64,000 nucleotides of DNA from an uncultured Actinomycetota bacterium (GTDB taxonomy: Bacteria > Actinomycetota > Actinomycetes > JACCUZ01). The notes under the pieces are model-generated. The model was not told the origin of the DNA. It worked only from the letters and a program-made list of their open reading frames with translations, and made no database searches. Each line of letters opens with the position of its first letter. The first letter of the stretch is position 1. This document shows, piece by piece, positions 29,416 to 63,381 of this stretch. The DNA lies in NCBI GenBank assembly GCA_963789855.1, contig CAWBMM010000002.1, positions 324,353 through 388,352 on the forward strand. The letters are read 5' to 3'. The position numbers and the translations under genes were made by a program.

Positions 29416-35031
<5,616 letters not shown>

Positions 35032-38473: not shown

Positions 38474-38544
38474 GCGGGTGTAGTTCAATGGCAGAACATC
38501 AGCTTCCCAAGCTGACAGTGCGAGTTCGATTCTCGTCACCCGCT
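38474..38544 (+). tRNA. tRNA-Gly (anticodon CCC)
   Basis: Hand-folded cloverleaf: acceptor GCGGGTG/CACCCGC, D arm GTTC/GAAC, anticodon arm TCAGC-TTCCCAA-GCTGA, T arm GCGAG-TTCGATT-CTCGT, discriminator T. CCA is not encoded. Confidence 0.9.
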
Positions 38545-38546
38545 CC
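38500..38546 (+). repeat. attL core (3' part of tRNA-Gly)
   Basis: cagcttcccaagctgacagtgcgagttcgattctcgtcacccgctcc is identical to 55385-55431. The bases on both sides of the repeat differ between the two copies. Confidence 0.9.
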
Positions 38547-38551
38547 CTCGA

Positions 38552-38574
38552 AAACCCTTATGGAATAAGGGTTT
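38552..38574. other. AT-rich 10-bp hairpin immediately inside attL
   Basis: aaacccttat-gga-ataagggttt. It is conspicuously AT-rich for this genome. It could be a tRNA terminator supplied by the element, or part of attP. Confidence 0.5.
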
Positions 38575-38611
38575 CTGGCCACTCTCGGACCAAGCGCAAG
38601 AACTCTCGATT

Positions 38612-38672
38612 GGCCCACGTGGGCCGTAACGCGCCCCTGTTGACCGGCTTATAGCCCACGTTTGGCCCACGA
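38612..38672. repeat. GGCCCAC-containing motifs near attL (candidate integrase arm-type sites)
   Basis: Palindrome ggcccacgtgggcc (38612-38625), and the 21-mer tagcccacgtttggcccacga (38652-38672). The 21-mer recurs exactly at 55295-55315 in the same orientation. Confidence 0.6.
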
Positions 38673-38752
38673 TCATCTTCTCGCCGGCACCCCGGCCGGT
38701 CCCGAAACGGAGCCGGAGCGCAGCACACCGGCCGGGTCGGGCGAGATGTTGG

Positions 38753-39004
38753 TCAGGGCTGACCGGCAGCATCGCGCAGCACCCGAGCCACCGGGGTCGT
38801 CCCGTCCCGGCTCTCGGGCAGGGCCACGCCTCTGGCCGGTGCGACACGTCCGGCGGCGACGAAGGCGTCGAGGTCCGTGGAGTCGATGCGCACGTGCTTG
38901 CCGAGCTTGGCGAAGGCGATCCGTCGCTCGGCGACGAGCCGACGGATGAATCGCGGCGACGTACCTAGACGCTCGGCCGCCTGGTCGACAGTGAGCAGAG
39001 GCAT
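38753..39004 (-). CDS. xis: Excisionase-family / HTH_17 DNA-binding protein
   Basis: MPLLTVDQAAERLGTSPRFIRRLVAERRIAFAKLGKHVRIDSTDLDAFV is the typical excisionase-type HTH. A GGAGGA Shine-Dalgarno sits 7 nt upstream of the ATG at 39004. Confidence 0.7.
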   Translation of the reverse strand: MPLLTVDQAAERLGTSPRFIRRLVAERRIAFAKLGKHVRIDSTDLDAFVAAGRVAPARGVALPESRDGTTPVARVLRDAAGQP

Positions 39005-39199
39005 CGGAGGGTCCTCCTGTCCCGACGACGGGGCTGTGGGTAGCGCGCGGGTGCCCGCACCTGACCGTCAGGATGAACCCGAATCGCCAGTGCTGCTCGG
39101 CGCTGATCGCGACGCCCGCGCGCGGGTCGTGCCGTCTCGTGACCCGGCGCACGCCCCCGTACCACCACGGACGTCCCCGTCCTGACCGGTCCTTCGAAA

Positions 39200-40102
39200 G
39201 AATCTTGAAAGCTAGGGCCGGGCTCGGGCGTGTCCCGCCCCTGCTGGGCCGGACACTCCACGATCAGGCTTCGAGCCAGCTGCTCTGTGTTGAGCTGGTG
39301 GATTGCCTCAACGACCGCAGTCCGATCTGTGAGGTCGATGCCCCGCTTCGCAAGCTCCGCGACCACGACCTTGGCAGGCCCCAGGACGACTCGTCGTCGA
39401 AGGCCTCCTCGAACGCGGGCAGGGACGCGTCGACCTCGGCGGCGGCCACGGGTCGATCCACGGCGTCGGCACACCTGGGCGGTCGAGGGCCAAACGAAGC
39501 CACCGGCGCCGCGCCTCGGGCAGCCCGGCGCGCTGCTAGGCGTCGAGGCCACCTTGCGAGGCGGCCAGCCCGCGAACACAGAACGACTGCACCCGGGCTC
39601 CAGCCCAGCGGGCGGACCCGGTGATCCCCGTCGCCGTACTCGGGAAGAGGTCGGCCAGCGACCGGGTGGCGTCGTCGTCAGAAAGTCCGGCGGCCGCGAC
39701 GAAGTCCTCGATCAGCGTGGCCTGCTGCTCGTCCGGCCGCGGCTCCCAGTCGGGCCAGTCCCCGAGGTGGGCACGCCAACGCGCCCCGGCGAGAGCCCGC
39801 GCCGGGACGAAGTCCTCGTCGTCATGTCGGCGCCACAGTCGGTCTCGCGCAGCGCGGAAGCCAGCTCGGCCAGCATCTCCTGCGCCGCTGCCCGGACAGC
39901 GGCATCGGAACCTCGCCGTCCCGCAGGTCGCCCCACGTCGCGGCCGCGCTGGCCGCAGGACCGCCAGCTTGTTGACCACCACGCCGCCCACGTCCAGCGC
40001 CGAGGCCATCAACGTGTGCGAGGTCGGGTCGTCGACGTCGATCCAAAGGCACCTGCATGCCGTCTCGGCAATCGACGGCACGGGCTGGTCTTCATCCACC
40101 AC
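39200..40102 (-). pseudogene. Hypothetical island gene, apparently split over several frames
   Basis: Protein-like segments appear in different minus frames: MVDEDQPVPSIAETA…LMASALDVGGVVVNKLAV; AAVRAAAQEMLAELASALRETD; DDEDFVPARALAGARWRAHLGDWPDWEPRPDEQQATLIEDFVAAAGLSDDDATRSLADLF; AKVVVAELAKRGIDLTDRTAVVEAIHQLNTEQLARSLIV. No family recognised and the ends are uncertain. Confidence 0.3.
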
Positions 40103-40159
40103 CCGTTGGTCGCAGGGCGCCAGTGCTCGGACCCCACCGGCGTGGTCGTCGAGGCCGGT

Positions 40160-40583
40160 CTAGTGCGGGGAGGGGCCAGACTTGCTCAGTGAGCGGTCCG
40201 CGCTGCCCACGACACTGCGTAGGAAGTGGTACTGCGTCGTGACCAGCTTGTCGGCCATGTCCAGCGCGGCGTCGATGACCGTTTCGCGGCGCGACGGGCG
40301 TTTGCCGAGCGCGGGGATCACCTCATCGACGGTGTCGACGAACTTGCGGACCGCCTCGATCGCGGCCCGCTGTCCGGCTGCGACCGCCGCGAGTACCTCG
40401 TCAGACAATTCCGCCGTCGTATCAACTGCGGACATCTGCGGGGCGGTCGTGCTCTTCTTAGCCGGCGTGGTCCGGGGTCTTCTTGGCCGGCGTGCGCTTC
40501 CTGGCCGGTGTGCTCTTCTTGGCTGTCGCACGGGTGCGAGAACCCGGTGCCTTCGTCGTCTTAGCGGTGGTGGTCTTGGCCAT
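40160..40583 (-). pseudogene. Protein with Lys/Ala/Thr-rich basic N-terminal tail and conserved helical C-terminal domain; one frameshift
   Basis: MAKTTTAKTTKAPGSRTRATAKKSTPARKRTPAKKTP (ATG at 40583) is in one frame. KKSTTAPQMSAVDTTAELSDEVLAAVAAGQRAAIEAVRKFVDTVDEVIPALG…DMADKLVTTQYHFLRSVV is in the next (switch ~40460). Confidence 0.45.
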
Positions 40584-40858
40584 GATCGCGCTCCTCGGCG
40601 TTCGATGCGAAGCCGTGCTGCCCTGGCGGCGCATCCCCCCGCCGTGCCGCCGACCGGGTGGGCACGCCGCTGCATTCCCTGTCATAGCAGCACGCCCCGT
40701 CCTCGACCGGCAGAGCACAACGTCCCGGAGACCCGGCCGGAGCGAAGAGACGACGTTGGTCAGGTTCGGAGGAGTACGGACTTCGGGCGGTTGGGCGCCG
40801 TTGCGGCTCGACCGGCGCCGCGGGAGGCTGGAAGCCAACGTAGCCGGGAGGGTCTGCG

Positions 40859-41350
40859 ATGCCGGAGCCTGAGATCATCATCGTGCCCGTCGACGTTCCG
40901 GACGGAGTCAATCTGATCTTCGGACAGTCGCATTTCATCAAGACCGTAGAGGACCTGTATGAAGCCCTGGTGGGCTCGTCGCCGCACCTGCGCTTCGGGC
41001 TGGCCTTCTGCGAGGCCTCTGGGCCACGGCTCGTGCGACGGGCCGGTAACGACCCGGCGCTCGTCGACCTGGCGGTCCGACACGCGCTGGCTGTAGGGGC
41101 AGGGCACTCGTTCATCGTGTTCTTGCGCGAGGGGTTCCCCGTGAACGTGCTCAACCAGGTCAAGGCCGTCCCGGAGGTCTGCGGCATCTACTGTGCGACA
41201 GCCAACCCGGTGCAGGTCCTCGTTGCCGAGACTGGGCAGGGTCGAGGCGTCTTGGGCGTCGTCGATGGCGCAGCGCCGCTCGGCGTGGAAGACGAAGGCG
41301 ACGAGGCAGATCGCCGAGCGCTGCTACGGGATATCGGCTACAAGCTGTGA
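40859..41350 (+). CDS. Adenosine-specific-kinase family protein (PF04008-like)
   Basis: Intact 163-aa ORF. GQSHFIKTVEDLYEAL…FGLAFCEASGPRLVR…VPEVCGIYCATANPVQVLVAETGQGRGVLGVVDG…LLRDIGYKL closely matches my recollection of this archaeal/bacterial family. Confidence 0.75.
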   Translation: MPEPEIIIVPVDVPDGVNLIFGQSHFIKTVEDLYEALVGSSPHLRFGLAFCEASGPRLVRRAGNDPALVDLAVRHALAVGAGHSFIVFLREGFPVNVLNQVKAVPEVCGIYCATANPVQVLVAETGQGRGVLGVVDGAAPLGVEDEGDEADRRALLRDIGYKL

Positions 41351-41697
41351 CCGCGCGCCGAGACCGTGCGGGAAGCCACCGACGCGGTCGAGAAGATCCA
41401 CGGCCACGGCGGGAAGACGAGCATCGTGTGGCTCTCGACCCCCACCAACGAGGTATGGCCACATCCGCGGGCCGACTGCAGTCCGCACTGGTCGGGGGCA
41501 TGGACCCCTGCGGTCGGATAGCGCATGGCATGCCCATCGCGGGCGCAACGTCACTGCCTCGCGTGCAGGGCGCCGCGGTCGGCGGTGGGGGGCTGCCGGT
41601 CGATGCACTTTGCCAATCCTTGACGTTCGGGTCGCCCGGAGGACCTTGCAGATGACGCCGGGTGCGACCCGGATCTGCGGCCCCTGGAGGCGCTCCG

Positions 41698-42046
41698 GTG
41701 AGCGGTTTCGTTCAGGTCATCGAGTGGAGAACGTCCAGAATCGATGACGTCGGCAAGTTCATTGAAGACTGGCGCGAAGCGATACCCCGAGATGGGGCCA
41801 AGCCGCGTCCTGGAGTGCGCTGACCGCGACCACCCGGGCCGGTACATGACCGTCGTCGAGTTCCCGTCATATGAAGCCGCGATGACCAACAACCAAGACC
41901 CTGCAACGCATGAGTTCGCCGAGGGGATGCTGGCACTCTGCGATAGCCCGCCCATCTTCCACAACCTCGACGTGATCAATCTGGAGCAGCGAGAAGCGGG
42001 CGTGCTGATCTTGCCGTCCGAGGACGCCAAGAACCGGCACCGCTGA
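41698..42046 (+). pseudogene. Small alpha+beta-barrel-like (ABM-like) conserved actinobacterial protein, one frameshift
   Basis: GTG at 41698 with GGAGG 8 nt upstream: VSGFVQVIEWRTSRIDDVGKFIEDWREA… The protein continues in the 41744 frame: …RVLECADRDHPGRYMTVVEFPSYEAAMTNNQDPATHEFAEGMLALCDSPPIFHNLDVI. The switch is near 41785-41800. Confidence 0.5.
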
Positions 42047-42313
42047 CCTTCCAAGCGCGAGCAACGCCCCAGACCGGCCGCGCGTCGGGGGCGTCGTTCG
42101 TCCGCCCACCCCTCCGCGGCGGCAGTCCCGAGGACGCCAGCGGCGCCCGGAAGGTTCGGTCCAGGGCTGGACATTGCGGCGGGCAAACCCTGCAGCGGAG
42201 TCGGTCGGTCCTCCATTTGGCGCCCACACCGGGCCACGAGTTGCGACACCCGGGGGCTCACCAGCTCCGACCGGGGGCCCTCCGCCGACGCATGGGGCCC
42301 GGGGCGTCGTCGT

Positions 42314-42877
42314 TTGGGCCTGCGACTCCCCTCGGGACGTTCGCCGCTGACAAGGCCGCAGGATGCCGCGGCGCGAACTCTTCCCTTCGAAGATCAGCCA
42401 CCCCTCGATGTCGGCCCACAGAGCGCTTCGACGCCGGGCAAGGCCAACACGCCATTCCTCGGCGCCGGCTCAGGCGACGCCGGTCCTCGGGTGTTGAGCC
42501 GCCGATTCGCTCAGACGGGCAGCGCCATCGGGCTTTCCGTCCCGGACGCGGGGCATCCGCCGGTCGATGGTGGGAGGTGGTCGGCGCCGCTCAACCCCCG
42601 AGCGTCGGGTCGGCATCGCCCCGGCATCGTCGGGTTTACCGTTGGGGCAGCTCACTTCCCAGACCCTGGAGGGAGCGTGGTGGCGTTCGGTTACAGCGGT
42701 CCGACGGTGCACATCGCCGTCGGCGTCCTGATGGAGCAGCACGATCTCGACGAAGCGCGGGCGACAGCCCTGATCATCGCATCCGCCTCTCGCTCCGCTC
42801 GAACCGTCAGCGACCTGGCGGTTGAGATCGTCGCGAACCCCCGCCGCATGGTCGTCGACGGCCAGCTGCCCGGTTAA
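42314..42877 (+). CDS. ANTAR-domain protein (RNA-binding antiterminator-type regulator); N-terminal part unclear
   Basis: The C-terminus …HIAVGVLMEQHDLDEARATALIIASASRSARTVSDLAVEIV fits the ANTAR helix pattern. The N-terminal 120 aa are low-confidence and may be frameshifted. Confidence 0.5.
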   Translation: MGLRLPSGRSPLTRPQDAAARTLPFEDQPPLDVGPQSASTPGKANTPFLGAGSGDAGPRVLSRRFAQTGSAIGLSVPDAGHPPVDGGRWSAPLNPRASGRHRPGIVGFTVGAAHFPDPGGSVVAFGYSGPTVHIAVGVLMEQHDLDEARATALIIASASRSARTVSDLAVEIVANPRRMVVDGQLPG

Positions 42878-43043
42878 GGACCCAGCGGCTGCCCTCGCTG
42901 GCTCAGTCGGCGCGGGGGTTGTGGGTTCAGAAGGCGGCATCAGGTGCACGCCGCCGCATAGATTTGCCAGGCGCCCGGTGGCGCCGCCGCTTCGGTTCCG
43001 GCGAGACCGTCAGACGTCGCTTCGACCGTGTGGGGTCGACCTC

Positions 43044-43610
43044 TCAGGAGGGCCTGCAGTCCTCGAACGCGACCAGCCGCAGGACGGCGGGGTATTGCCG
43101 GGCGTTCTCGACGTAGGCCTCGACTCCGTGGCTGATCCGTCGGGCGTGCTCGGTGCCTTCGAGGGGCATGACGTGTCCCGGCACGCCGCGGACCATCGAG
43201 TGGGGCGGTACCCGGCGGCCCTCGGTGACGAGGGTGCCGGCGGCGATGACGCTGTGCGCACCGACCACCGCACGGTTGAGCACAGTGGACATCGAGCCGA
43301 CGAGACAGTGATCCTCGATGATGCAGCTTTCGAGGTGGGCGTTGTGTCCCACCACACATTCCGCGCCGATCCGTGTCGGGTTGGCGCGGGTGGTGTGGAG
43401 AACCGTCCCGTCCTGCACCGAGGTTCGCGCCCCGACCACGATCGACCCGTAGTCGCCCCTCAGGACGGCGGTCGGCCAGACCGACGCGTCCTCGCCCAAC
43501 ACGACGTCCCCGATGACCACCGCGTCCGGATGGACATACACGCCGCGGGCGATTCTCGGCTTGACTCCGTCGAAAGCGTAGATCGGCACCCAGTCCTCCA
43601 AGGTCGGCAT
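43044..43610 (-). CDS. Gamma-carbonic-anhydrase-like / hexapeptide-repeat (LbH) protein
   Basis: 188 aa from the ATG at 43610 (MPTLEDWVPIYAFDGVKPRIARGVYVHPDAVVIGDVVLGEDASVWPTAVLRGDYG…), the typical YrdA/PaaY-type left-handed beta-helix. Confidence 0.8.
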   Translation of the reverse strand: MPTLEDWVPIYAFDGVKPRIARGVYVHPDAVVIGDVVLGEDASVWPTAVLRGDYGSIVVGARTSVQDGTVLHTTRANPTRIGAECVVGHNAHLESCIIEDHCLVGSMSTVLNRAVVGAHSVIAAGTLVTEGRRVPPHSMVRGVPGHVMPLEGTEHARRISHGVEAYVENARQYPAVLRLVAFEDCRPS

Positions 43611-44063
43611 CTGGCGCACAACAAGCGTGTCAGGTCGGCTCGCGCCTACGTACTCCGGTGGGAGCCCAGAGCGACCCGAGAATCGCCGCGTTAGACCGGG
43701 CGGCTCTGCCAGGAACATGACGGGCTCGCGCGCCCATCAAGCGGGCCTGGCCAGCCGCTACGACAAACACGCCCTCGTCTGCCGAGGAGGCGTTGTCCTC
43801 GCCGCCATCCTCCTGGCTCACCTGCTTGGTGAGACGGGGCCCAACTAGGCGCCGCCGGCCGTGCTTGTGACCGCAGTAGTGACCCACAGTCCAGTCCGCA
43901 GACGGGCCGCGATGCTATGGACCTGGCTCGTCTCCTGTTTCGAGACGGTCTGAACGATTGTCGGCGCGGCCACAGGATCAAGGTGGGGGACATAGAGTGA
44001 GCGGCAAGCGGCCCCGGGCCGCTTGCCGGGCCAGCGGCGACGCGGCCAGTTCGAGGTCGGAAG

Positions 44064-44426
44064 ATGTCCAGACGCGATGACGTCGGTGAGCTCCTCGAGG
44101 ATGACGGCGCCGAGGACACGATGCTCGACGCGGACGGCGACAACACCGGGGACGCCGGTGATCGATACCGGGGCTCCCTCGGGTTCGGCACCACCGCGGC
44201 GGAAGAGTCACGTGGTGAGTCTTTGGATCAGCTGCTGGCCGAGGAAGAGCCCGATGCGGTCGAGGACGACGCAGGAGATCCCGACTGGGACGACCGCGGT
44301 CCCCGCCGGGAGATCGCCCAATTGCTGACCGGCGGGGAGGGCTCGCACTCGCGCACCGATCCAGACCTCCTGGGAAAGGACCGGGGCGATGCGGGTCTCT
44401 CGGCCGAAGAGGCCGCCATGCACTGA
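44064..44426 (+). CDS. Acidic DUF5709-like protein
   Basis: Highly acidic 120-aa ORF with …ESLDQLLAEEEPD… and C-terminal …GLSAEEAAMH, as recalled for DUF5709. Confidence 0.6.
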   Translation: MSRRDDVGELLEDDGAEDTMLDADGDNTGDAGDRYRGSLGFGTTAAEESRGESLDQLLAEEEPDAVEDDAGDPDWDDRGPRREIAQLLTGGEGSHSRTDPDLLGKDRGDAGLSAEEAAMH

Positions 44427-45742: not shown

Positions 45743-46225
45743 TCACCTGGTGATCCAGCCGGTGGCTATGTCGGAGAGCTCCCCGGTTCCCAGGTTGGCG
45801 ACGCCGTCCCAGGTGAGTTGCCCTTGGGCTCCCTGGAAGCGTCCGGTCCCACCGGTGACCGGGCCGGTGACGTGGTAGGTGATGACGAGCGGATCGCTGG
45901 TGCCTGCGGCTGTGCCGGCGTAGGTCCCGACGATGCTGTCGCCGTTGGCTGCGGTGATGGTGAAGGAACCATCGCTGACCTGCAGGGTGGCCAGGTTGAT
46001 GACCTCTGAGCCCTGCAGCGAGTAGTGCCCGAGATGGGTCGCGATGCCCGTGCCCTGGTCCTGGGTGAGGACCAGTGGAGGACTCAGCGGGGAGGTGACG
46101 AAGGTTCCGTGGTCGCGCGCCGTGATGTGCGTGACCTTTGCATCAGCAGCGTGGGCGGGCAGCATGGCCGCTGCGCTGAAGGCGATGGTCGCGGACACTA
46201 GGGCGAGGGTCGGGACGCGGCGCAT
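45743..46225 (-). CDS. Secreted protein of unknown function
   Basis: From the ATG at 46225: signal peptide MRRVPTLALVSATIAFSAAAMLPAHA-AD followed by a beta-rich ~135-aa domain (…GGTGRFQGAQGQLTWDG…). Confidence 0.55.
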   Translation of the reverse strand: MRRVPTLALVSATIAFSAAAMLPAHAADAKVTHITARDHGTFVTSPLSPPLVLTQDQGTGIATHLGHYSLQGSEVINLATLQVSDGSFTITAANGDSIVGTYAGTAAGTSDPLVITYHVTGPVTGGTGRFQGAQGQLTWDGVANLGTGELSDIATGWITR

Positions 46226-46299
46226 GGTGGCTCCTTTGACTGGTCTGGGGCTGTGACCCATTGACGCGCGGGCCGGTCGAGCGTTGGTAGAGCGACGTC

Positions 46300-49286: not shown

Positions 49287-49409
49287 ACGCCGGCCCCCGA
49301 TTCCGGGACGGAACCAACCCCGTGCCCCCAACTTCCCACGGACTGCGCTCTACCGCGACTCAACCGCGCCCTGCCACGGTGGTAGCACACCCCAGGACGG
49401 AGGGACGAC

Positions 49410-50196
49410 ATGGCGACCATCCAGCACCCCGCGTGCGGTGACCTCAGCTACAGCACGAGCGGCGAAGGATCCACCGCCTTGCTGCTGCTGCACGGATGGG
49501 CGGGTCTGCGGCCTACTTCGAGAAGCTGGTCGGCCATCTGGACCCCGAACTCCTCTATTGCGTGTGCCTGGACCTTCCGGGGCATGGATCCTCCGGCGAG
49601 CCGGTCGGCGACTACACCCTGGACGGCATCGCCGATGTCACTGTCGCGGTGGCTGACGCCGCCGGCGCCGACACTTTCATCCTGCTCGGCTACAGCATGA
49701 GCGCGAAGTTCGCGCAGTACATCGCCAACCGCCACTACGACCGGGTAGTGGGACAGATTCTGGTGTCCGGCGCCCCGGCAGGGCCGCTCCCCTTGCCGGC
49801 GGAGCTGGTCGACGACTGGTGTGACCGCGCCGGAGCCGCCGACCGGTTGATCGACGTCGTGCTGAGCTGCGCGACCAGGCCGCTCGACGCGCTGGTGCTC
49901 AAGGACGTCGGACACGGGGCCGCACGCGTCCTGCCCGACGTGCTGAGGGGGACCGTCGAGCTTTGCGTCGAGAGTGACTTCCTCGACGCGGTCAGGAACT
50001 CGAGCCTGCCGACCCTCGTTGTCGGTGGAACTGAAGACTGGATGTTTCCACCCGAGGTGTTGCGCGAAGCTTGGCGGCTCCTCTTGAACGCGCCCGGCTC
50101 GAGTTCATCAACTGCGGGCACGAGATACCCCTCGAAGCCCCCTCCGAGCTGGCCGACCTAATCTCGCAATTCGTCACACAGCTAGGAGGGACCTAG
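49410..50196 (+). pseudogene. Alpha/beta hydrolase, two frameshifts
   Basis: Three segments lie in three frames. First: MATIQHPACGDLSYSTSGEGSTALLLLHGWAG. Second: SAAYFEKLVGHL…LLGYSMSAKFAQ…LVVGGTEDWMFPPEVLREA. Third: ARLEFINCGHEIPLEAPSELADLISQFVTQLGGT. Switches fall near 49505 and 50070-50095. Confidence 0.65.
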
Positions 50197-50214
50197 CCTC
50201 CGGATCTCACGTGG

Positions 50215-50463
50215 CTAGGTCCTGCGCGGCTCAGCGCGACCGGTTGCATCGGACAGGGGCGCAGGGACTCCGCCGGCTGCCATCGACGGGTCGCGGCACA
50301 GCACGGGGATGGTGGCGCGGACGTGCCCGCAGGCGCGGCAGGTGATGACGAGCCCGTCGTTGAGGCGGCGCGCGCGCAACGCCCACGGCGTGTGGCATTG
50401 AGTGCAGAACCGGCTGACGATCCGCCGGCGTCGGGCGGTCTCGAGGTCGCTGACGTTCCCCAT
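50215..50463 (-). CDS. Small zinc-ribbon-like protein (hypothetical)
   Basis: MGNVSDLETARRRRIVSRFCTQCHTPWALRARRLNDGLVITCRACGH… has two CxxC pairs. No family recognised. Confidence 0.3.
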   Translation of the reverse strand: MGNVSDLETARRRRIVSRFCTQCHTPWALRARRLNDGLVITCRACGHVRATIPVLCRDPSMAAGGVPAPLSDATGRAEPRRT

Positions 50464-50670
50464 GAGGGGTCCCCGTTCGCGTTGTCGCCCAGTTGCGACG
50501 ACGCCGAGGATGCGCCTCAATCATGGCCAAGCGCAAGCGAATCGCCGCACCCAGTGAAGGGGGTCTCCGCCCGAACCACCACGTCTGCGTGAGCCGAGCC
50601 GCGACCTCGAACGGGCAGCATCAGCTTTGAGGACACCTCGGCTTGCACCTCAAGGCTTGGACTACGGTTG

Positions 50671-53394
50671 CTACCTGTCGATGGATCGGGCGGTGCTGGA
50701 GGGAGCGGCTGGCTGTGCCCATCCGGATCTGCCGGTCGGTGATTCCCATCGTCCTGGGCGCGGGGCCATGTGGCGCCCGGGTGCCTCGGCGTCGCGAAGC
50801 CGACGCGGCCTGATCGCGATGGCCTGCTCGCGGGCTTGGTCGAGCAGGGTGTGGGCGGCTTGTTGGCGGCGGTCGTGCGGTCTGTAGGGGCGGATGGCGT
50901 CGCCAGGGTGGCACGACCCCGGGTGCTGGTGCTTGTGCTGGTCGATGTCGGCGGGTTCGATGGTGAGATGCACGTGGTTGTCGTGCTGGCTGCGGGTCAT
51001 CCCGACGTAGAGGTGTTCGCGGTCGAGGCCGGGTCGGGCGAGCAGGATGCCGATGTTGGCGGTGGCGCCTTGGGCGCCGTCGATGGTGGTCGCCCAGCCG
51101 TAGCTGGCGTTCTCGGCGAGATACGTCGCGGGTAGCGAGGTCCGGCCGCGGCCGGCGAGATCTGGACGTCGAGGCCGCCGCCGGGGGCGGGGCCGAGGAC
51201 AGTGAACCGGTCACCGTTGCGGACGTGGGTGGCGCCGAGGTTCAGCCGGCGGTCGTTGCGCCGGGCTCGGAGCAGGTCGCCGGAGTGCCAGGTCACGGCC
51301 GCCCGCGACGGCGAGGACCGGGCCGTGCACGGTGCCGTCGGCTTGAGGCGGCGGTGCGGGCCCGCTGGTTGAGGGCGTCGACGTCGGTGCGGGCGCGGGC
51401 CATCATCAACGCGTCCATGCCGTGGGTGGTGGCGGTCTGCCACTGGCGGTGGACGGCGTCCAGGGCGGCGTCGGGGTCGGGGGCCGGGTGGATCCGGTCG
51501 TCGGCGTAGCGGGCCCACACCGCGGGGTTGCCGGACCGGAGGGCCCGGGTGGCGGCGGCTTCCCAGGGGTGGCTGAACCGGCGGATCCCGGTCAGCTCGA
51601 CCGCCCCGACCCGCGCGGCCAGGGCCGGCAGGAGGCCGCCGGCGCGTTCGACCGGCCCGATCTGGGCCGGGTCACCGACCAGGACCAGCTTGGCCCGGCC
51701 GGCCCGGGTAGCCACGGTGAGGGCGGCCAGGTCTTCGGTGGCGAGCATCGCGGCCTCGTCCACGATCAGCACGGTGCGGGGTCCGACCCGCCACCGGCTT
51801 GCCCGTTCGGACGGCTGGCTCGGGAGGCGGGGTTGTTCGTGGGCCCATTTGGCGACGGTGTCCGCCGGGGCGCCGGTGGCGGCGGAGAGTTCGGCGGCGG
51901 CCCGGGCGGAGGGGGCCAGGCCGTGGACCTGGTAGCCGGCGTCGGTCCAGGCGGCGGCGGCCGCCCCGAGGGTGGTGGTCTTCCCGGCGCCGGCCGGGGC
52001 GATCAGCACCGCCAGCATCTCCCCGCCCGACGACGCAGCCGTTGCAGGACGCCGGTCTGTTCGGGGTCGAGCTGGGCCGCCGCCGCGTGGGCGGCGGCCA
52101 GGGCGCCGGGCACCACCGCGCGGCCGGCGGCCACACCAGCCTGGGCGGTGGACAGGATCCGGGCCTCGAGGGCGAGCAGGTCGGCGGCGGCCCACCGGGT
52201 GTCGCTGTCTCGGGGGGTGACCCCGTCCTGGACCCGCCCGACCGGGACGGCCTGCGCGGTGGACAGCGCCTCGGTGGTGACCTGCTCGACCAGTGGCCCG
52301 GACCTGCGCGGCGGTGCCCGGCTGGGTGGGCAGCGCGGCCGCGGCCTGGACCACCAGATCGGCGCGGGAAGATGTCGCGCTCCGGGTGCCGGCCACGGCC
52401 ACCGCGCGGGCGGTGACTCGCCGGCTCACCGCCGCATCGAGGTCGCCGGCTGGCGGCCTGCCGGGTGCCGGTGGCGCGGCTGCGTCGGACGCGCGGATCA
52501 GCTGGTTCGCCGCTCCAGCCCACCGGAGGCCTCAGCGGCCACCGGGCCTGCAGCACGCCCGCGCCGAGTGGGCGGCTCGCGGGGCGAGACTTGAGCACGA
52601 GGTCTCGATCACCGTGGCGCGTTCGGCCGAGGTGAGGTCCCGACCGAGCGCGTCGGCGAACTAAGCTCCAGGGTGGGCGCGGCGTCGGCGTCGATCTGCC
52701 GGGTTCGTTTGGACCAGTGCCGATCAGCGCGGAGGGGACGACCGGGGAACGCGACCTGGCCGAGCGCGTGACCGGACCGAACCCGACCCCGAGGCGTGGC
52801 AGCTCGCCGCGTAGCGCGGCCTGGTAGAGCGCGCCGGCGGCTCTTGTGCTGGTAGATCTCGCGCCCGTCGATGCTCCGCCACCCCCTGGCGCAGCGCAGC
52901 TTTGACCACCAGAGCGTGGAGTGCAGCTGGGGGTCCCCGTGGGAGCGGCGGTGGTCGAGACCGCGCTGCGTACCCGGAGAGCGATTAGGGGTCACCGTCG
53001 ACCGCTTTGCGCGAATGGCGGCTGTCGTCGAGATAGGACAGCGCGGCTGCACCGCGGCGCGGTGCGCTCGGCGATCTGGTGAACAGATTGTGGGTCGCCG
53101 ATGCCCACGGCGCGGACACCGATTTGGGCGCGGAGAACGTAGGTGATACCGGTGACCCCGTCGAGAGGCCGGCCAGCGGCGCCGCTCGAGGGTACAGGCG
53201 GCGAGCCAGCAGCGCTCAGCTGCGCTCGGTGACCATGGCGCCCGGGCCAGGTCAGCTCGCCCAGGCCCGCGTACAGCGACGGCGCCTCACGCGGGCCAGG
53301 AAGTACTCCGACGGGTCGGCGGCCACTCGCGCTGGTAGTACCGCCACGGCTGGTTCCGATCTTCGCCGAGGCGAGATGCCGCGGAACCTAGCAT
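50671..53394 (-). pseudogene. MOBF-type (TrwC/TraA-like) conjugative relaxase-helicase, heavily frameshifted
   Basis: Relaxase motifs seen in various minus frames: LASAKIG…YYQRE-VAADPSEYFLAR (N-terminus, ATG ~53394); TFSAPKSVS (~53111-53140); GDPQLH (~52905-52945); IDGREIYQH…ALYQAALRGELPRLGV. Helicase motifs: LIAPAGAGKTTTL (Walker A), LIVDEAAML, VLVGDPAQIGPV, GMTRSQHDNHV. Confidence 0.8.
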
Positions 53395-53409
53395 TCCGGG
53401 AATGCACAT

Positions 53410-53965
53410 GTCTGCGCTATCTGGGGCCAAGATCGAAAGGCCCGGGCAATACCCGTCGTGGTTGGACGATAACGCGGTGAGTGACGGATAGTGAAGGTGT
53501 CTGACGGTCAATTACGGTATGCCGAGAGGGCAATACGGGGGAAGATTGGCTGGGGAGAAAGGATCTTGAGCGGGAACGGCGTGTCGGGACGCGGCGCGAG
53601 GGCCTTTCGGCCTGCCGCAGCAACTGCCTTCGCGTGCCCGTGGCTGGGCCACGCGGAAGGTACGGGGTCCCTGGATCGCTCGTCCGAGCATCGACTGAGA
53701 CCCCGTAGGCGGCGATCGACAAGCCACGGGTAGCGGTTGGCCACTGAGACAAGAGCAGCCCAAAATAGCCGCGAAGGAGCGGCGAACAGCTGGCAGCAAG
53801 TGACCCGCGAAGGACTTCAGGCCCGCGAGCGGATATGCCCCGAGAATCGGCCGTGCTCAGAGCCGCCGCGGGTACATGGTGAACCTCCAATTGGGAGCAC
53901 CTGCGCGTAGAATTCGAGAAATCTGTCGGGTTTCTGGGTCAGAAGGCCAGGCGCGCCGACGCCGG
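53410..53965 (+). ncRNA. Probable 5' fragment (domains I-III) of a group II intron, lacking IEP ORF and domains V/VI
   Basis: About 550 nt that is visibly less GC-rich than its surroundings, with no credible ORF on either strand. Many local and long-range helices (for example tacggggtc 53661-53669 pairs with gaccccgta 53699-53707; aggcc-tttc-ggcct). Motifs recalled from bacterial group II intron domains I-III occur in the right order: cgggaac, actgag, gccccgagaatc, gggtac, cagaagg. Confidence 0.45.
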
Positions 53966-54010
53966 CGCCGCGATCGCCACTGCGGAGCGCGTCGAGCCAG
54001 TGCCGCTTCG

Positions 54011-55237
54011 CTAGCCCAAACGCCCGCGCGACATCGGCACGACGTTCTTCGCGGCGAGCACCTCGGCTGCCGTGGCGTCCATCGCCGCTGCGACCCGCCG
54101 CGAATGCTCCGCCGTCGCGTGCTGGTAGCGCTGCGCAGCCGCCGGGGTCGAGTGACCGGCCATCTGCATGAGGGTGGCCAGGGTCGCCCCGTGCTCAGCG
54201 GCCGCGGTCATCGCCGAGTGCCGCAAGTCGTGCCCGCGACAGTCGGTGCGGCCGATCTTGTCCAGCCCGCGACGCAGGATCTGGGAGTAGGTGTCGAGTA
54301 CCTCGCGGCCGCCGGCCGTGAGGAACACCAGATCGTCTGGGCCGGCACCCGGTCGATGCTCGTCCAGGTGCCGGCGAAGCTCGGCGGCGAGAAAGGCCGG
54401 CAGCGCGACGGTGCGTCCACCGGCCTCTGACTTGGGGGCGTCCAGCGTCAGGCGTCCCGCCACGCGGTACAGCCGGCGGGTGACGCGGACCTCCGGTTGC
54501 CGGCCGTCCAGCCCTAGGTCGAGGATCCGCAGTGCTGCCAGCTCGCCGGCGCGAAGCCCGGAGAACCCCGCCATCAGCACCACGGCGCGGTACCTGGCAG
54601 GCACCACGTCTGCGAGCTCCGCCAGCTCGGTCACGCTCAATGTCGGGCGCTCAGAGGACCGGGGCTCGCCGGCCCCTGTTATGCGGCACGGGTTGCGCAG
54701 CAACAGCTCGTCGTCGACGGCGGTCTGCAGGATCGCCCGCAGCAGCCGGTAGGACGCGCGCCACGGTCGCCGAGCGGTCCCGGCTCCCGGCCCGGCTGCG
54801 TCTCGCCCCCCGACGGTCGGATCAGCCTGGTCCGCAGGTCCGCCGACAGCAGCGGCGTGCCAGGCGCGGACCCGGTCCGGCTCGATCTGGTCGAGCAGCA
54901 GCGGACCGAGGTAGGGCTCGAGGTGCCGGCGGAAGTCGATCGCGTACTGGTGTCGGGTCGAGTCTTTGAGCCCGGGCCGAAGTTCGACCCAGCGGGCCCC
55001 GTAGTCCGCGAGGGTCTCCGACACCCGCCGGGGTGCCCGATAGGTCCGCCGCAGGATGTCCGCCTCGACGGTGGCGAGGAACGCGCGGGCATCGGCAGTA
55101 GTGGCGAACGTCTGGTCCGCAGTCGCGCGTCGGCCGCTGGGGTCCCGCCACCTGGCCCGGAACCGACCCGATGGGAGCCGCTCCACGGTGCCGAAGCCAC
55201 CCCGGCGACGGCGCCGGGCCGGTTGCGGAGTGGTCAT
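54011..55237 (-). CDS. int: Tyrosine recombinase (phage-type integrase)
   Basis: Intact 408-aa ORF. N-terminal SAM-like/arm-binding region (GTVERLPSGRFRARWRDPSG…) and a catalytic domain with …GLRAGELAAL…, HDLRHSAMT and …AGHSTPAAAQRYQH (R…HxxR…Y pattern). It lies 148 nt from attR. Confidence 0.9.
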   Translation of the reverse strand: MTTPQPARRRRRGGFGTVERLPSGRFRARWRDPSGRRATADQTFATTADARAFLATVEADILRRTYRAPRRVSETLADYGARWVELRPGLKDSTRHQYAIDFRRHLEPYLGPLLLDQIEPDRVRAWHAAAVGGPADQADPTVGGRDAAGPGAGTARRPWRASYRLLRAILQTAVDDELLLRNPCRITGAGEPRSSERPTLSVTELAELADVVPARYRAVVLMAGFSGLRAGELAALRILDLGLDGRQPEVRVTRRLYRVAGRLTLDAPKSEAGGRTVALPAFLAAELRRHLDEHRPGAGPDDLVFLTAGGREVLDTYSQILRRGLDKIGRTDCRGHDLRHSAMTAAAEHGATLATLMQMAGHSTPAAAQRYQHATAEHSRRVAAAMDATAAEVLAAKNVVPMSRGRLG

Positions 55238-55294
55238 GGGTACTGCCTCCTGGTGACCGGCGACCGCCGTTGAGAGCCGCCAGAGGCCCTACGT

Positions 55295-55315
55295 TAGCCC
55301 ACGTTTGGCCCACGA
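55295..55315. repeat. Second copy of the 21-mer tagcccacgtttggcccacga (candidate arm-type site next to attR)
   Basis: Exact direct repeat of 38652-38672. It lies between the int start (55237) and attR (55385). Confidence 0.6.
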
Positions 55316-55380
55316 CGCTGGTCCGAAGATCCCAAAATTGCGCTATCGTCGCAGGTCAGAGCGTTATCCACAGGACATCG

Positions 55381-56592
55381 TCAACAGCTTCCCAAGCTGA
55401 CAGTGCGAGTTCGATTCTCGTCACCCGCTCCATGCGTCCTCCCATGCGGGCGGCGCACTCCGGCATAGATGTCGAGGTGTCGTCGCGCGCTCTGCTCCCA
55501 GGTGAAGCGCGCTGCGACGGCGCGGCCCGCGCGGACGAGCGACCTCCGAAGGTCGTCGTCCTCCAGGGTGGCCAGCAGGCCGGTCGCCAGGCCGCCGACG
55601 TCACCCGGCACCACCATGATCGCGTCGCGTCCGGGCACGAGGTACTCCCGGAACACGGGCAGGTCACTGGTGACCACCGGGATGCCGGCGCTCATCGCCT
55701 CGAGCACGGCCAGCCCGAAGCCCTCCTTCACCGACGGGAAGGCCAGCACGTCGGCGGCGGCGTACCAGGCGGGGATGTCGGCGTCGGGGACGGTGCCGAC
55801 GAGGACGACGTCGTCGTCCATCGTCAGACCCAGCTCTGGAAGCAGGCCGAGCACCCGCTCGCGGTAAGGCCGGTGGTCCTGGAACGAGTGGCCGCCGACG
55901 ACCGCGAGCACCGGTGCCACCTCCCGGTTGGCTTTGATCTCGGCCAATGCGCGCACGAGTGTGTCGCTGCCCTTGCGGGGCTCGATGCCGCCGACGGCAA
56001 GGACGAGCGGCCGACGGTTCGCGCCCACGTCGTCGCGTAGCTGCGCGGCTCGGTCACGGTCCGCCGCGGCGAAGCGACCGATGTCGACACCGTTGGGCAC
56101 CACGCCGGCGTGGACGCCGTAGTCCTGCTCGAGGATCTGCTGCCACGCCTGGCTGACCGTCAGCACGACGTCGGGCTCGAGGATCGCCGCGCGCTGGCAG
56201 TCCATCAGGACCTGGCTGGAGAAGTCGTCGACGTGGTGCACGGTCCGCACGACGGTCACCGATGCGCCTCCGTCACGAACCCGCGCCGCGGCGCGGGCCG
56301 CGATGCAGTCCTGCGCATGCAGCAGCGGGGCGTCGGTCTCGGCCAGCGCTGCGGCGAGCCGGTCGATGCTGGCGGCGACCTTGTCCTCGAGCGCGAGACC
56401 ACCGGACGGCCCCGGCACGACCGTCACCGGCGCGGCGACCGGGCGGAAGAATCCCGTCGCCGGCTCGCCGAGGGCCAGCACCCGCACCGACACGCCAGCC
56501 GCGTGCAGCGCCTCGGCGAGAGCCAGCGTGTGCACGACCCCCCCGCGCGGCTTGGTGGAGTACGTGAGCAGCAGCACCTCGGACTCGCTCAC
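55381..56592 (-). CDS. GT4-family glycosyltransferase (MSMEG_0565-family-like)
   Basis: GTG start at 56592 (VSESEVLLLTYSTKPRGGVVHTLALAEAL…) overlaps the fdrA stop (GTGA). The C-terminal GT-B motif …FPSVKEGFGLAVLEAMSAGIPVV… is present. The ORF runs through attR and stops at 55381. Confidence 0.8.
   Translation of the reverse strand: MSESEVLLLTYSTKPRGGVVHTLALAEALHAAGVSVRVLALGEPATGFFRPVAAPVTVVPGPSGGLALEDKVAASIDRLAAALAETDAPLLHAQDCIAARAAARVRDGGASVTVVRTVHHVDDFSSQVLMDCQRAAILEPDVVLTVSQAWQQILEQDYGVHAGVVPNGVDIGRFAAADRDRAAQLRDDVGANRRPLVLAVGGIEPRKGSDTLVRALAEIKANREVAPVLAVVGGHSFQDHRPYRERVLGLLPELGLTMDDDVVLVGTVPDADIPAWYAAADVLAFPSVKEGFGLAVLEAMSAGIPVVTSDLPVFREYLVPGRDAIMVVPGDVGGLATGLLATLEDDDLRRSLVRAGRAVAARFTWEQSARRHLDIYAGVRRPHGRTHGAGDENRTRTVSLGSC
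55385..55431 (+). repeat. attR core (displaced 3' part of tRNA-Gly)
   Basis: 47/47 identity to 38500-38546. No tRNA 5' half lies upstream of it. Confidence 0.9.
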
Positions 56593-59164: not shown

Positions 59165-59190
59165 AGTGAACTAGCGTTGCGAGGAGCGCA

Positions 59191-59847: not shown

Positions 59848-59916
59848 ACCTCTTGCCTCCCACCAGGTTGTGTCGGATAGTGAACGTCAGTCGGTCACTC
59901 CTAGCGAGGGCAGCAC

Positions 59917-63371: not shown

Positions 63372-63381
63372 AGGCGGCGCG

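What the first reader, a model, noticed from the sequence alone, without database searches (positions are those of the whole stretch)
38474..55431. 16.9-kb integrative element in tRNA-Gly(CCC) bounded by a perfect 47-bp direct repeat
The intact tRNA-Gly (38474-38544) shares its last 45 nt plus 2 downstream nt exactly with 55385-55431, and identity stops on both sides. Between the repeats lie an excisionase-type HTH gene (next to attL), a tyrosine integrase (next to attR), a MOBF relaxase/helicase, and cargo unrelated to the flanking core genes (dcd, Fe-S reductase). No capsid, terminase or tail genes are present, so this is an integrative mobilisable/conjugative-type island rather than a prophage. 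No FtsK/TraB-like translocase or replication gene is evident and several genes are disrupted, so it may be a decaying remnant.
Basis: partly seen in the sequence, partly recalled or inferred. Interest (0 to 1): 0.7.

Follow-up and report, generated by a model that had tools for sequence, protein, structure and literature searches.

The report
Mobilisable island inserted in tRNA-Gly
A 16.9-kb piece of foreign DNA sits in the end of a glycine tRNA gene of an uncultured soil actinomycete; a close relative has the same site empty, so it is a real but ordinary and partly decayed mobile island.

Summary
tRNA-Gly(CCC) lies at 38474-38546. Its last 47 nt (38500-38546) recur exactly at 55385-55431, where about 1e-16 such repeats are expected by chance.

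A contig from the same species (L097) carries carbamate kinase, CoA ligase, GT4, an intact tRNA-Gly, dcd and the Fe-S reductase with one 47-mer and none of the 16,885 bp. Its flanks are 98-99% identical to the window.

Both ends carry the same exact 21-mer, TAGCCCACGTTTGGCCCACGA. I read these copies as integrase arm sites, so the two ends belong to one attP.

The element encodes:
- an excisionase-family protein next to attL;
- a tyrosine integrase next to attR;
- a MobF (TrwC plus helicase) relaxase.

It has no T4SS, coupling protein, FtsK/TraB translocase, replication gene or phage structural gene. It is therefore an integrative mobilisable element (IME).

- The 1005-aa ORF is a SARP/AfsR-type regulator, not the relaxase.
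- The relaxase lies at about 50674-53400 and is broken. One frameshift is shared with an independent assembly.
- Frameshifts also hit core genes such as dcd, so part of the "decay" may be assembly noise.
- Other strains carry the island with the relaxase and integrase deleted.

It is a new member of a known kind, of modest interest.

The parts
38474..38546 (+). tRNA-Gly(CCC), intact. This is the target gene; its 3' part is rebuilt by the element.
   Evidence: ARAGORN. The same tRNA sits next to dcd in many Actinomycetes.
38500..38546 (+). attL core: left copy of the 47-bp direct repeat.
   Evidence: A single copy is present in the empty site L097.
38551..38575 (.). 10-bp hairpin AAACCCTTAT-GGA-ATAAGGGTTT, just inside the element.
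   Evidence: Read from the sequence. A related hairpin sits at the same place in L001. Its function as a terminator is inferred.
38609..38672 (+). Putative arm-type integrase sites of the P' arm: the palindrome TTGGCCCACGTGGGCC (38609-38628) and the tandem 21-mer TAGCCCACGTTTGGCCCACGA (38652-38672).
   Evidence: The exact 21-mer occurs only here and at 55295-55315; 0 are expected by chance. It is also present in L001, L083, L086, L087 and L091.
38753..39004 (-). Excisionase-family DNA-binding protein (Xis/RDF candidate), 83 aa.
   Evidence: Pfam HTH_17, 3.8e-14. NCBIfam TIGR01764, 59.3 bits against a cut-off of 28.8. PHROG excisionase.
39256..39727 (-). Remnant of the C-terminus of a PAS-domain protein, spread over several reading frames.
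   Evidence: tblastn with the intact 576-aa L001 protein. PAS domains found.
40160..40675 (-). Hypothetical protein (137 aa in the cleaner assembly L086).
   Evidence: Gene call in L086. No Pfam, NCBIfam or PHROG hit.
40859..41350 (+). Cargo: protein of the adenosine-specific kinase family.
   Evidence: PF04008, 1.5e-73, full length.
42047..42874 (+). Cargo: protein with an ANTAR domain.
   Evidence: PF03861.
43044..43718 (-). Cargo: hexapeptide-repeat protein, similar to gamma-carbonic anhydrase and PaaY.
   Evidence: Pfam Hexapep. NCBIfam NF050158/PaaY, below the cut-off.
44064..44426 (+). Cargo: DUF5709 protein.
   Evidence: PF18970.
45743..46261 (-). Cargo: hypothetical protein whose N-terminus looks like a signal peptide. 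This is the first gene of the variable module that is replaced in other strains.
   Evidence: ORF and translation. The strain-to-strain breakpoint lies at about 45724.
46300..49286 (-). Cargo: SARP/AfsR-type regulator (winged HTH + BTAD + NB-ARC + TPR). The winged-HTH part (49038-49286) is in a different frame from the rest.
   Evidence: BTAD 1.6e-40, NB-ARC and TPR. L081 residues 1-83 (Trans_reg_C) map at 100% identity to frame -3, while the ORF is in frame -2.
49410..50193 (+). Cargo: alpha/beta hydrolase, split over 3 frames in the window. It is an intact 262 aa in L081.
50278..50463 (-). Small protein with a zinc-ribbon-like CxxC...CxxC pattern (64 aa), just downstream of the relaxase.
   Evidence: tblastn from L081. 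Weak Zn_ribbon hits. It is retained in strains that have deleted the relaxase and integrase.
50674..53400 (-). MobF-family relaxase-helicase (TrwC domain + AAA_30/UvrD_C_2), disrupted by several frameshifts; probable pseudogene.
   Evidence: AAA_30 4e-47 and UvrD_C_2 in another frame. TrwC/NF041492 in the ortholog L081. Frame map against the 1051-aa homolog P0381. A +1 frameshift is shared with L081.
53400..54010 (.). Non-coding region between integrase and relaxase, with lower G+C; candidate oriT. It holds an imperfect hairpin with a GAAA loop at about 53591-53618 and GTATTGCCC twice (53528-53536 and 53444-53452).
   Evidence: Sequence and alignment with L081, 93% conserved. The oriT role is inferred and not tested.
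54011..55237 (-). Tyrosine integrase, 408 aa. Codons of about 128-160 are out of frame compared with 7 homologs.
   Evidence: Pfam Phage_integrase and SAM-like domain. 3075 homologs, the best 90% identical. The alignment shows the catalytic R, HxxR, H and Y conserved. Three 1-nt insertions lie in 54757-54856.
55295..55357 (+). P arm: the second copy of the 21-mer arm site (55295-55315) and the DnaA-box-like motif TTATCCACA (55349-55357).
   Evidence: The motif is also upstream of the related integrase in L082, there inverted.
55385..55431 (+). attR core: right copy of the 47-bp repeat. It lies inside the last 17 codons of the host GT4 ORF on the opposite strand.
   Evidence: In the empty site the GT4 ORF overlaps the tRNA by 49 nt.

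Best explanation
Positions 38547-55431 (16,885 bp) are one genomic island of the integrative mobilisable element (IME) kind.

**How it arrived.** Its tyrosine integrase recombined an attP carrying a 47-bp copy of the 3' end of tRNA-Gly(CCC) with the chromosomal tRNA gene. This rebuilt the tRNA at attL and left the second 47-mer at attR.

**Layout of the circular form.** The order would be xis - P' arm - core - P arm - int, all on one strand. Integration therefore places the excisionase gene at the left end and the integrase at the right end. The integrase then lies directly downstream of the host GT4 operon and in the same direction.

**How it would move between cells.** The element carries a MobF (TrwC-type) relaxase-helicase and presumably an oriT. 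It has no mating-pore, coupling-protein, TraB-type translocase or replication genes. Transfer would therefore need a helper conjugative element.

**Present state.** In this genome the mobilisation module is probably dead, because the relaxase is frameshifted. In sister strains the relaxase and most of the integrase are deleted. The island is thus a decaying IME that still has intact att sites and carries regulatory and metabolic cargo.

**Shown:** the insertion, the repeat, the empty site, the arm repeats and the gene families. **Inferred:** the recombination mechanism, the oriT, the need for a helper, and present-day inactivity.
For: **1. Repeat and tRNA.** Searches confirm them; the chance expectation is about 1e-16.

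**2. Empty site in a conspecific.**
- L097 positions 1-6169 match window 61553-55382 at 98.3%.
- L097 positions 6120-8405 match window 38546-36257 at 98.9%.
- The two matches overlap by exactly the repeat.
- The tRNA is intact at L097 6119-6192.

**3. Both arms belong to one attP.** The exact 21-mer TAGCCCACGTTTGGCCCACGA lies about 105 bp inside attL and about 70 bp inside attR, with 0 expected by chance. The same motif follows the tRNA-Gly of another species, L001. Related GCCCACG repeats and a tRNA-Gly 3' fragment lie upstream of a 66%-identical integrase in L082.

**4. Gene families.**
- Integrase.
- Excisionase: TIGR01764, above its cut-off.
- Relaxase helicase part: AAA_30 and UvrD_C_2 in the window.
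- Relaxase N-terminal part: TrwC/NF041492, above its cut-off in the orthologous copy.

**5. What is absent.** Nothing resembling T4SS, VirD4, FtsK/SpoIIIE, Rep or phage structural proteins appears in six-frame Pfam scans of the unassigned stretches of the island or in Pfam scans of the called ORFs elsewhere. PHROGs also finds none.

**6. Composition.** Island G+C is 0.69-0.71 against 0.73 in the flanks, with lower tetranucleotide correlation and lower GC3.

**7. Decay.**
- The relaxase is spread over at least 3 frames.
- One +1 frameshift is identical in the window and in L081.
- Strain type B has a clean 4,527-bp deletion of window 50533-55059, covering the relaxase and most of the integrase. 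It also has a swapped cargo module, yet it is still bounded by both repeats.
Against: - No circular form or attP junction was found in the JGI metagenome or IMG/VR scans. This is weak evidence, because the relatives of this genome come from ENA data that those scans do not cover.
- The oriT is only guessed, and no helper element was identified.
- The window's integrase has a 33-codon out-of-frame stretch, and the relaxase is broken. The copy may not be able to move at all.
- Frameshifts also occur in core genes. The state of each island gene therefore cannot be read safely from this assembly.
- The left 1.2 kb is also found, at 78% identity, after the tRNA-Gly of a different species. That could mean part of the island is older than the perfect repeat suggests.
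Confidence: 0.85

Rival explanations
1. The element is a fully functional IME. On this view the frameshifts in the relaxase, integrase, hydrolase and SARP genes are errors of a noisy long-read assembly.
For: - The window's integrase has three +1 insertions within 125 nt that sum to +3.
- In an Hsp70-like core gene nearly all indels are +1 insertions in the window.
- The dcd frameshift is specific to the window.
- The hydrolase is intact in L081 but broken in the window, and the SARP gene is broken at different places in the two assemblies.
- The att cores and arm sites are perfect.
Against: - One relaxase frameshift (an extra C between GGRD and W..GDLLRARRNDRRL) is identical in two independent assemblies that differ by about 4% nearby.
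- The TrwC region is the most diverged and most gap-rich part of the island between them, at 86-89% identity against 92-98% elsewhere.
- Window versus the clean assembly L086 shows only 4 indels in 7.2 kb of core DNA. The window is therefore not uniformly noisy.
Confidence: 0.2
2. The island is a composite of two elements stacked at the same tRNA. An old remnant (38547 to about 45724, with xis) would lie next to a newer int-relaxase element (about 45725-55384).
For: - The left 1.2 kb is shared with another species, L001, at 78% identity.
- Strains share 38547-45724 but differ completely to the right of about 45724.
- A related element (L082) has its xis right next to int.
Against: - The empty site lacks both parts at once, and the junctions are exactly at the repeat.
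- There is no internal third copy of the core, not even a degenerate one.
- The same exact 21-mer arm site is present on both outer arms.
- Strain type B keeps the int start, the P arm and attR. It therefore derives from the same complete island by deletion and module swap.
Confidence: 0.08
3. The island is a prophage remnant or phage satellite rather than a conjugation-related island.
For: The integrase and excisionase hit phage families (PHROG 1 and 1840). Integration into a tRNA is also typical of phages.
Against: - No capsid, portal, terminase, tail, lysis or phage replication gene was found in Pfam scans of the island: six-frame for the unassigned stretches, called ORFs elsewhere. PHROGs finds none either.
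- There is no similarity to 50,697 phage records beyond the tRNA itself.
- A MobF relaxase is present.
Confidence: 0.03

Closest known systems
Canonical integrative and mobilisable elements (IMEs): own integrase/excisionase and own relaxase, no T4SS or coupling protein (review PMC5704250; class definition in PMC10484663)
   Same: - Tyrosine integrase at one extremity.
- Excisionase gene.
- Relaxase gene.
- No mating-pore or coupling-protein genes.
- Integration into the 3' end of a tRNA gene, with a direct repeat.
- Small size (17 kb) with unrelated cargo.
   Different: - The 2017 review states that the known canonical IMEs use MobP, MobQ, MobV or MobC relaxases and none uses MobF or MobH. It also lists only one IME from Actinobacteria, ATE-1, with a MobV relaxase. 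Here the relaxase is MobF and the host is an uncultured actinomycete.
- Mobility has not been shown, and the relaxase looks inactivated.
Actinomycete integrative and conjugative elements (AICEs) such as pSAM2 and SLP1 (named from my own knowledge; class described in PMC3218068 and PMC3429521, which I did not read in detail)
   Same: - High-G+C actinomycete host.
- Tyrosine integrase plus Xis.
- Integration into the 3' end of a tRNA gene, rebuilding it.
- Size of 10-25 kb.
   Different: - No FtsK/SpoIIIE-type TraB translocase and no Rep gene were found.
- A single-strand-transfer relaxase is present instead.
- attP lies between xis and int. In pSAM2 it lies downstream of an xis-int pair; that comparison is from memory.
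MobF relaxases: TrwC of R388, TraI of F, and TraA-type relaxases of actinobacterial plasmids
   Same: - The domain order is an N-terminal TrwC relaxase followed by an SF1B helicase (AAA_30, UvrD_C_2).
- In L081 the histidine motif reads DHRTSRAGDPQLHSH.
- Full-length homologs are 1000-1150 aa.
   Different: - The gene sits on a chromosomal island without any T4SS.
- The reading frame is broken in the window and in L081.
- In the window the stretch after ...DPQLHS is locally out of frame.
Related islands at tRNA-Gly(CCC) in other Actinomycetes (loci L001, L061, L082, L048, L074)
   Same: - Same target tRNA next to dcd.
- L001 has the same 21-mer arm site and a 76%-identical xis.
- L061 has a 77%-identical integrase at the far end from the tRNA.
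- L082 has a tRNA-Gly 3' fragment 120 nt upstream of a 66%-identical integrase.
   Different: - The cargo is entirely different.
- L082 has xis adjacent to int.
- L048 and L074 use a distant integrase (about 33% identity) placed next to the tRNA.

Membership tests
Integrative mobilisable element (IME) | Site-specific recombinase gene at one extremity of the element | tested here: met
   A tyrosine integrase lies at 54011-55237, 148 bp from attR. The catalytic R, HxxR, H and Y columns are invariant in the alignment with 7 homologs.
Integrative mobilisable element (IME) | Discrete insertion bounded by att repeats, with an unoccupied site elsewhere | tested here: met
   A 47-bp perfect direct repeat bounds the island. 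The empty site L097 in a conspecific has one copy of it.
Integrative mobilisable element (IME) | Own relaxase (DNA-processing module) and an oriT | tested here: inconclusive
   The relaxase gene is present but frameshifted. The ortholog in L081 reaches the NCBIfam MobF cut-off, at 120.8 bits against 100. The oriT is only guessed, at 53400-53620.
Integrative mobilisable element (IME) | No T4SS (VirB4 etc.) and no coupling protein | tested here: met
   The island was covered by Pfam scans: six-frame for the unassigned stretches, called ORFs elsewhere. None of these families appeared at E<0.01.
Integrative mobilisable element (IME) | Excision to a circle and transfer with the aid of a helper element | not testable with these tools
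   Exact-match scans for the attP-left arm plus core found nothing in JGI metagenomes or IMG/VR. These collections do not hold the ENA samples in which relatives were found.
AICE (actinomycete ICE, pSAM2/SLP1 type) | FtsK/SpoIIIE-domain TraB translocase | tested here: not met
   No FtsK_SpoIIIE hit in the six-frame scans. No unassigned stretch is long enough to hold such a gene.
AICE (actinomycete ICE, pSAM2/SLP1 type) | Replication initiator (RepSA, RepAM or prim-pol) | tested here: not met
   No such Pfam family was found.
T4SS-type ICE | VirB4 ATPase, VirD4 coupling protein and mating-pair-formation genes | tested here: not met
   None was found.
Prophage or phage satellite | Capsid, portal, terminase, tail or lysis genes | tested here: not met
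   Pfam and PHROGs give only integrase and excisionase hits. Megablast against phage records hits only the tRNA.
MobF relaxase family | N-terminal TrwC relaxase domain with the histidine triad | tested here: inconclusive
   Pfam does not detect it in the window. tblastn finds its remains at 52416-52995 in three frames, at 42-60% identity. It is clear in the ortholog L081: PF08751 at 3e-34 and NF041492 above its cut-off.
MobF relaxase family | C-terminal SF1B helicase (AAA_30 + UvrD_C_2) | tested here: met
   AAA_30 at 4.2e-47, and UvrD_C_2 in a neighbouring frame. TraA_Ti at 3e-41. There are 4277 library relatives at E<1e-10.
MobF relaxase family | One uninterrupted reading frame | tested here: not met
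   Against the homologs P0381 and P0375, the window uses frames -1, -3 and -2, and L081 uses +3, +1, +2, +1 and +2. One shift is shared.
Excisionase family (TIGR01764 / HTH_17) | Match to the family model above its curated cut-off | tested here: met
   59.3 bits against a cut-off of 28.8. Pfam HTH_17 gives 53.1 bits against 27. Its role as the island's directionality factor is inferred.

The most novel reading that the evidence does not exclude
This would be a family of MobF-relaxase IMEs in uncultured soil Actinomycetes. A 2017 review listed no IME with a MobF relaxase.

In this family attP would lie between xis and int. Integration would then split the recombination module and put int directly behind a host operon (GT4). 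Integrase expression would be wired to host transcription, and the xis-attP-int unit would be rebuilt only in the excised circle.
Probability: 0.2. Interest if true: 0.45.

Novelty: new member of a known kind. Interest (0 to 1): 0.3.

Why it matters
The case is unusually complete for one island seen in metagenome data alone. One species shows the empty site, the full element and a derivative that has lost integrase and relaxase, so the steps from mobile element to fixed chromosomal DNA can be read directly.

It also adds a MobF-type relaxase and an actinomycete host to the known range of mobilisable islands. It marks tRNA-Gly(CCC) next to dcd as an insertion hotspot in Actinomycetes.

It does not reveal a new mechanism. 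The cargo (a SARP regulator, a hydrolase, a kinase-like protein, ANTAR proteins) has no obvious special importance.

Tried and rejected
- **The 1005-aa ORF as relaxase.** Rejected: it is BTAD/NB-ARC/TPR.
- **Megablast of the island against plasmid and phage records.** It matched only the tRNA and the adenosine-kinase gene.
- **Genome-collection scan with the flanking Fe-S reductase.** The best relative was only 85% identical, and none had the right flank. It gave no empty site. It did show the hotspot and the related island in L001.
- **'Island younger than the host split'.** I inferred this from 92-98% island identity against 82-92% right-flank identity with L081. I withdrew it when the left flank proved 94-99% identical. 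It is the right flank that is unusually divergent.
- **JGI contigs L093-L095 as the empty site.** They are only empty-like. A 371-bp spacer lies between the tRNA and GT4, and their dcd is 79% identical, so they come from another species. L097 superseded them.
- **Exact-match scans of JGI metagenomes.** Scans for a flush attB and for the attP-left arm plus core gave 0 hits. IMG/VR also gave 0 hits.
- **L061 as a minimal version of the element.** It has no relaxase and unrelated content.
- **Look-up of the window's own adenosine-kinase protein.** It is not on record.
- **An internal third att copy near 45.7 kb.** None was found.

Full report
**1. The observation**

ARAGORN places tRNA-Gly(CCC) at 38474-38546. 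Its last 47 nt (38500-38546) are repeated exactly at 55385-55431, 16,885 bp downstream. Identity stops on both sides. About 1e-16 such repeats are expected by chance in this window.

The attR copy is followed by A. That gives the encoded CCA end seen in native tRNA-Gly genes of relatives. The copy inside the tRNA is followed by C, contributed by the inserted DNA. This is the pattern expected from a crossover inside the 47 bp.

**2. Gene content**

G+C is about 70%, so ORF lists are useless on their own. I combined GC3 filters, Pfam on chosen ORFs and Pfam on six-frame translations of the unassigned stretches.

From left to right the island holds:

| Coordinates | Strand | Content |
|---|---|---|
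| 38753-39004 | - | Excisionase-family protein (HTH_17; TIGR01764 above cut-off) |
| about 39256-39727 | - | Remains of a PAS protein |
| 40160-40675 | - | Hypothetical protein |
| 40859-41350 | + | Adenosine-kinase-family protein |
| 42047-42874 | + | ANTAR-domain protein |
| 43044-43718 | - | Hexapeptide protein, similar to gamma-carbonic anhydrase |
| 44064-44426 | + | DUF5709 protein |
| 45743-46261 | - | Hypothetical protein, probably secreted |
| 46300-49286 | - | SARP/AfsR-type regulator |
| 49410-50193 | + | Alpha/beta hydrolase |
| 50278-50463 | - | Small zinc-ribbon-like protein |
| about 50674-53400 | - | MobF relaxase-helicase |
| 53400-54010 | . | Non-coding stretch of about 600 bp |
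| 54011-55237 | - | Tyrosine integrase |

The 1005-aa ORF, the obvious candidate for a 'relaxase/helicase', is BTAD + NB-ARC + TPR.

For the real relaxase, only the helicase part is recognisable by Pfam in the window: AAA_30 at 4e-47, with UvrD_C_2 in a neighbouring frame.

No T4SS, VirD4, FtsK/SpoIIIE, replication or phage structural family appears anywhere. The flanks are dcd and an Fe-S/CCG reductase on the left, and GT4, a CoA-ligase-like gene and carbamate kinase on the right.

**3. Relatives: the decisive evidence**

Integrase homologs are numerous: 3075 hits, the best 90% identical. Walking through public contigs with exact-protein look-ups gave four states of this locus.

- **(a) Full island.** ENA ERZ25039492 contig_5347 (loci L081 and L083) has the same island between the same flanks, with both 47-mers perfect. 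Its gene calls include TrwC (PF08751) fragments upstream of the helicase. NCBIfam names them MobF, at 120.8 bits against a cut-off of 100.
- **(b) Deleted island.** ERZ25039490 contig_566 (L086 and L092), and also L087 and L091, keep 38547-45724, the zinc-ribbon ORF, the first 59 codons of int, the P arm and attR (one mismatch).
  - They have a clean 4,527-bp deletion of window 50533-55059, which covers the relaxase and most of int.
  - They carry a different cargo module: a Pyridox_ox_2 protein, another SARP regulator in the opposite orientation, and a BBE oxidase.
- **(c) Empty site.** ERZ23877684 NODE_1174 (L097) reads carbamate kinase - CoA ligase - GT4 - tRNA-Gly - dcd - Fe-S reductase.
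  - L097 1-6169 equals window 61553-55382 at 98.3%.
  - L097 6120-8405 equals window 38546-36257 at 98.9%.
  - The two alignments overlap by just the repeat, and ARAGORN finds the intact tRNA.
- **(d) Empty-like site in another species.** JGI contigs L093-L095 have the GT4 cluster at 97% identity, a 371-bp spacer, an intact tRNA-Gly, and then a dcd only 79% identical.

A further short-read contig, L098, ends in an attR-type junction.

**4. One element or two?**

The left 1.2 kb (xis plus the PAS remnant) also follows the tRNA-Gly of a different species, L001, at 78% identity. Strains differ completely to the right of about 45724. I therefore considered a stack of two elements. Four observations argue against it:

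- The empty site lacks everything at once.
- There is no internal att copy.
- The deleted strains still carry the int start, the P arm and attR.
- An exact 21-mer, TAGCCCACGTTTGGCCCACGA (two 11-bp units), occurs only at 38652-38672 and 55295-55315, that is, on both arms, with 0 expected by chance. A palindromic copy of the unit lies at 38609-38628.

These have the layout of arm-type integrase sites. L001 carries the same 21-mer after its tRNA. L082, whose integrase is 66% identical, has GCCCACG repeats and a tRNA-Gly 3' fragment about 120 nt upstream of int. I conclude that this is one attP and one element family.

**5. How it most likely works**

- *Shown:* an insertion at the tRNA 3' end with duplication of the core.
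- *Inferred from what is known of tyrosine integrases:* integrase-mediated attP x attB recombination, with the HTH_17 protein as directionality factor.

In the circle the order on one strand would be xis, P' arm, core, P arm, int. Integration therefore separates xis (left end) from int (right end). It also leaves int 144 nt downstream of the co-directional host GT4 gene. Read-through expression of int is possible but untested.

The GT4 ORF overlaps the tRNA 3' end on the opposite strand by 49 nt in the empty site. The duplication preserves both genes and adds only one codon to GT4.

Transfer would require nicking at an oriT by the MobF relaxase and a helper's mating machinery. My oriT candidate is the conserved non-coding stretch 53400-53620, which holds a GAAA-loop hairpin and two copies of GTATTGCCC. 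The resemblance to the R388 nic region is from memory and is only a lead.

**6. Is it decaying?**

The evidence is mixed and needs care.

Against reading too much into the frameshifts:
- dcd is split by a 1-nt insertion found in no relative.
- An Hsp70-like core gene at 29.4-31.3 kb is in five frame segments, nearly all from +1 insertions.
- The window's integrase has three 1-nt insertions within 125 nt that restore the frame. They put 33 codons out of register with seven homologs.
- The hydrolase is intact in L081 but broken in the window, and the SARP gene is broken at different places in the two assemblies.

All of these look like assembly errors.

For real decay:
- The window differs from the clean assembly L086 by only 4 indels in 7.2 kb of core DNA.
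- The relaxase uses at least three frames in the window and five segments in L081 when mapped onto full-length homologs.
- One +1 shift, an extra C after GGRD, is identical in both assemblies.
- The TrwC region is the most diverged part of the island between them.
- The type-B strains have lost the relaxase and integrase outright.

I therefore rate 'relaxase dead, island decaying' as likely but not proven for this copy.

**7. Comparison with what is known**

The element meets the working definition of an IME: an integrase at one extremity, a relaxase, and no T4SS (PMC10484663). It fails the defining features of AICEs (TraB, Rep), of T4SS-type ICEs and of prophages.

The 2017 IME review states that the known canonical IMEs carry MobP, MobQ, MobV or MobC relaxases and none carries MobF or MobH. 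It lists only one IME from Actinobacteria (PMC5704250). The relaxase type and the host are therefore a modest extension of the known range.

I found no later paper that settles whether MobF IMEs have been catalogued since.

**8. Verdict**

The thing itself is an ordinary kind of genomic island. It is a new member of a known kind, and I score its interest at about 0.3.

Noticed in passing
window 29418-31316 (-), 27539-28293 (-), 38039: Core genes carry clusters of 1-nt insertions. An Hsp70-like gene is split into 5 frame segments relative to the intact 659-aa ORF of L001. dcd is split by one extra base that three conspecific assemblies lack. Either the assembly has patches of insertion errors or this genome holds real pseudogenes.
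   Followed up: partly
window 55432-64000; loci L093-L095: The right-flank cluster runs from GT4 through a CoA-ligase-like gene, carbamate kinase, a radical SAM gene and further genes.
- It is 97% identical to a cluster that sits 371 bp downstream of tRNA-Gly(CCC) in a different species, whose dcd is only 79% identical.
- It is only 82-92% identical to the same cluster in the otherwise closer strain L081.

The cluster itself looks horizontally exchanged. It may be a second island at the same tRNA.
   Followed up: partly
window 55349-55357; L082 about 9893-9904: A perfect DnaA-box-like motif, TTATCCACA, lies between the arm sites and the att core. The same 12-mer, GTTATCCACAGG, is present upstream of a 66%-identical integrase in L082, but inverted.
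   Followed up: no
L097 4959-6192; window 55381-55431: In the unoccupied site the GT4 ORF overlaps the tRNA-Gly gene on the opposite strand by 49 nt and stops at a TGA inside the tRNA. After integration the ORF reads through the attR copy and gains one codon.
   Followed up: partly
loci L048, L074, L032, L016: tRNA-Gly(CCC) next to dcd is an insertion hotspot across Actinomycetes. L048 and L074 have a distant integrase (about 33% identity) plus xis directly after the tRNA. L032 shows only an integrase hit (38% identity) after a 23-nt tRNA fragment. L016 has a second tRNA fragment 2.5 kb downstream.
   Followed up: partly
window 45724 and 50165; L086 14281, L092 14471: Strains swap the cargo module between two fixed breakpoints that fall at gene ends. 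Both versions carry a large SARP/NB-ARC/TPR regulator (1005 aa and 1067 aa), in opposite orientations and without nucleotide similarity.
   Followed up: partly
plasmid hits H10-H15 (Streptomyces canus and S. anulatus plasmids): Several Streptomyces plasmids carry a 48-58-nt match to the attR copy of the tRNA-Gly 3' end plus a few bases of the arm. These may be attP sites of integrating plasmids that target the same tRNA.
   Followed up: no
window 39279-39804 and 42182-42576: Two segments of the island's left half, 525 bp and 394 bp, are absent from the type-B strains. These strains are otherwise 97-99% identical to the window there. The first segment removes more of the PAS remnant.
   Followed up: no
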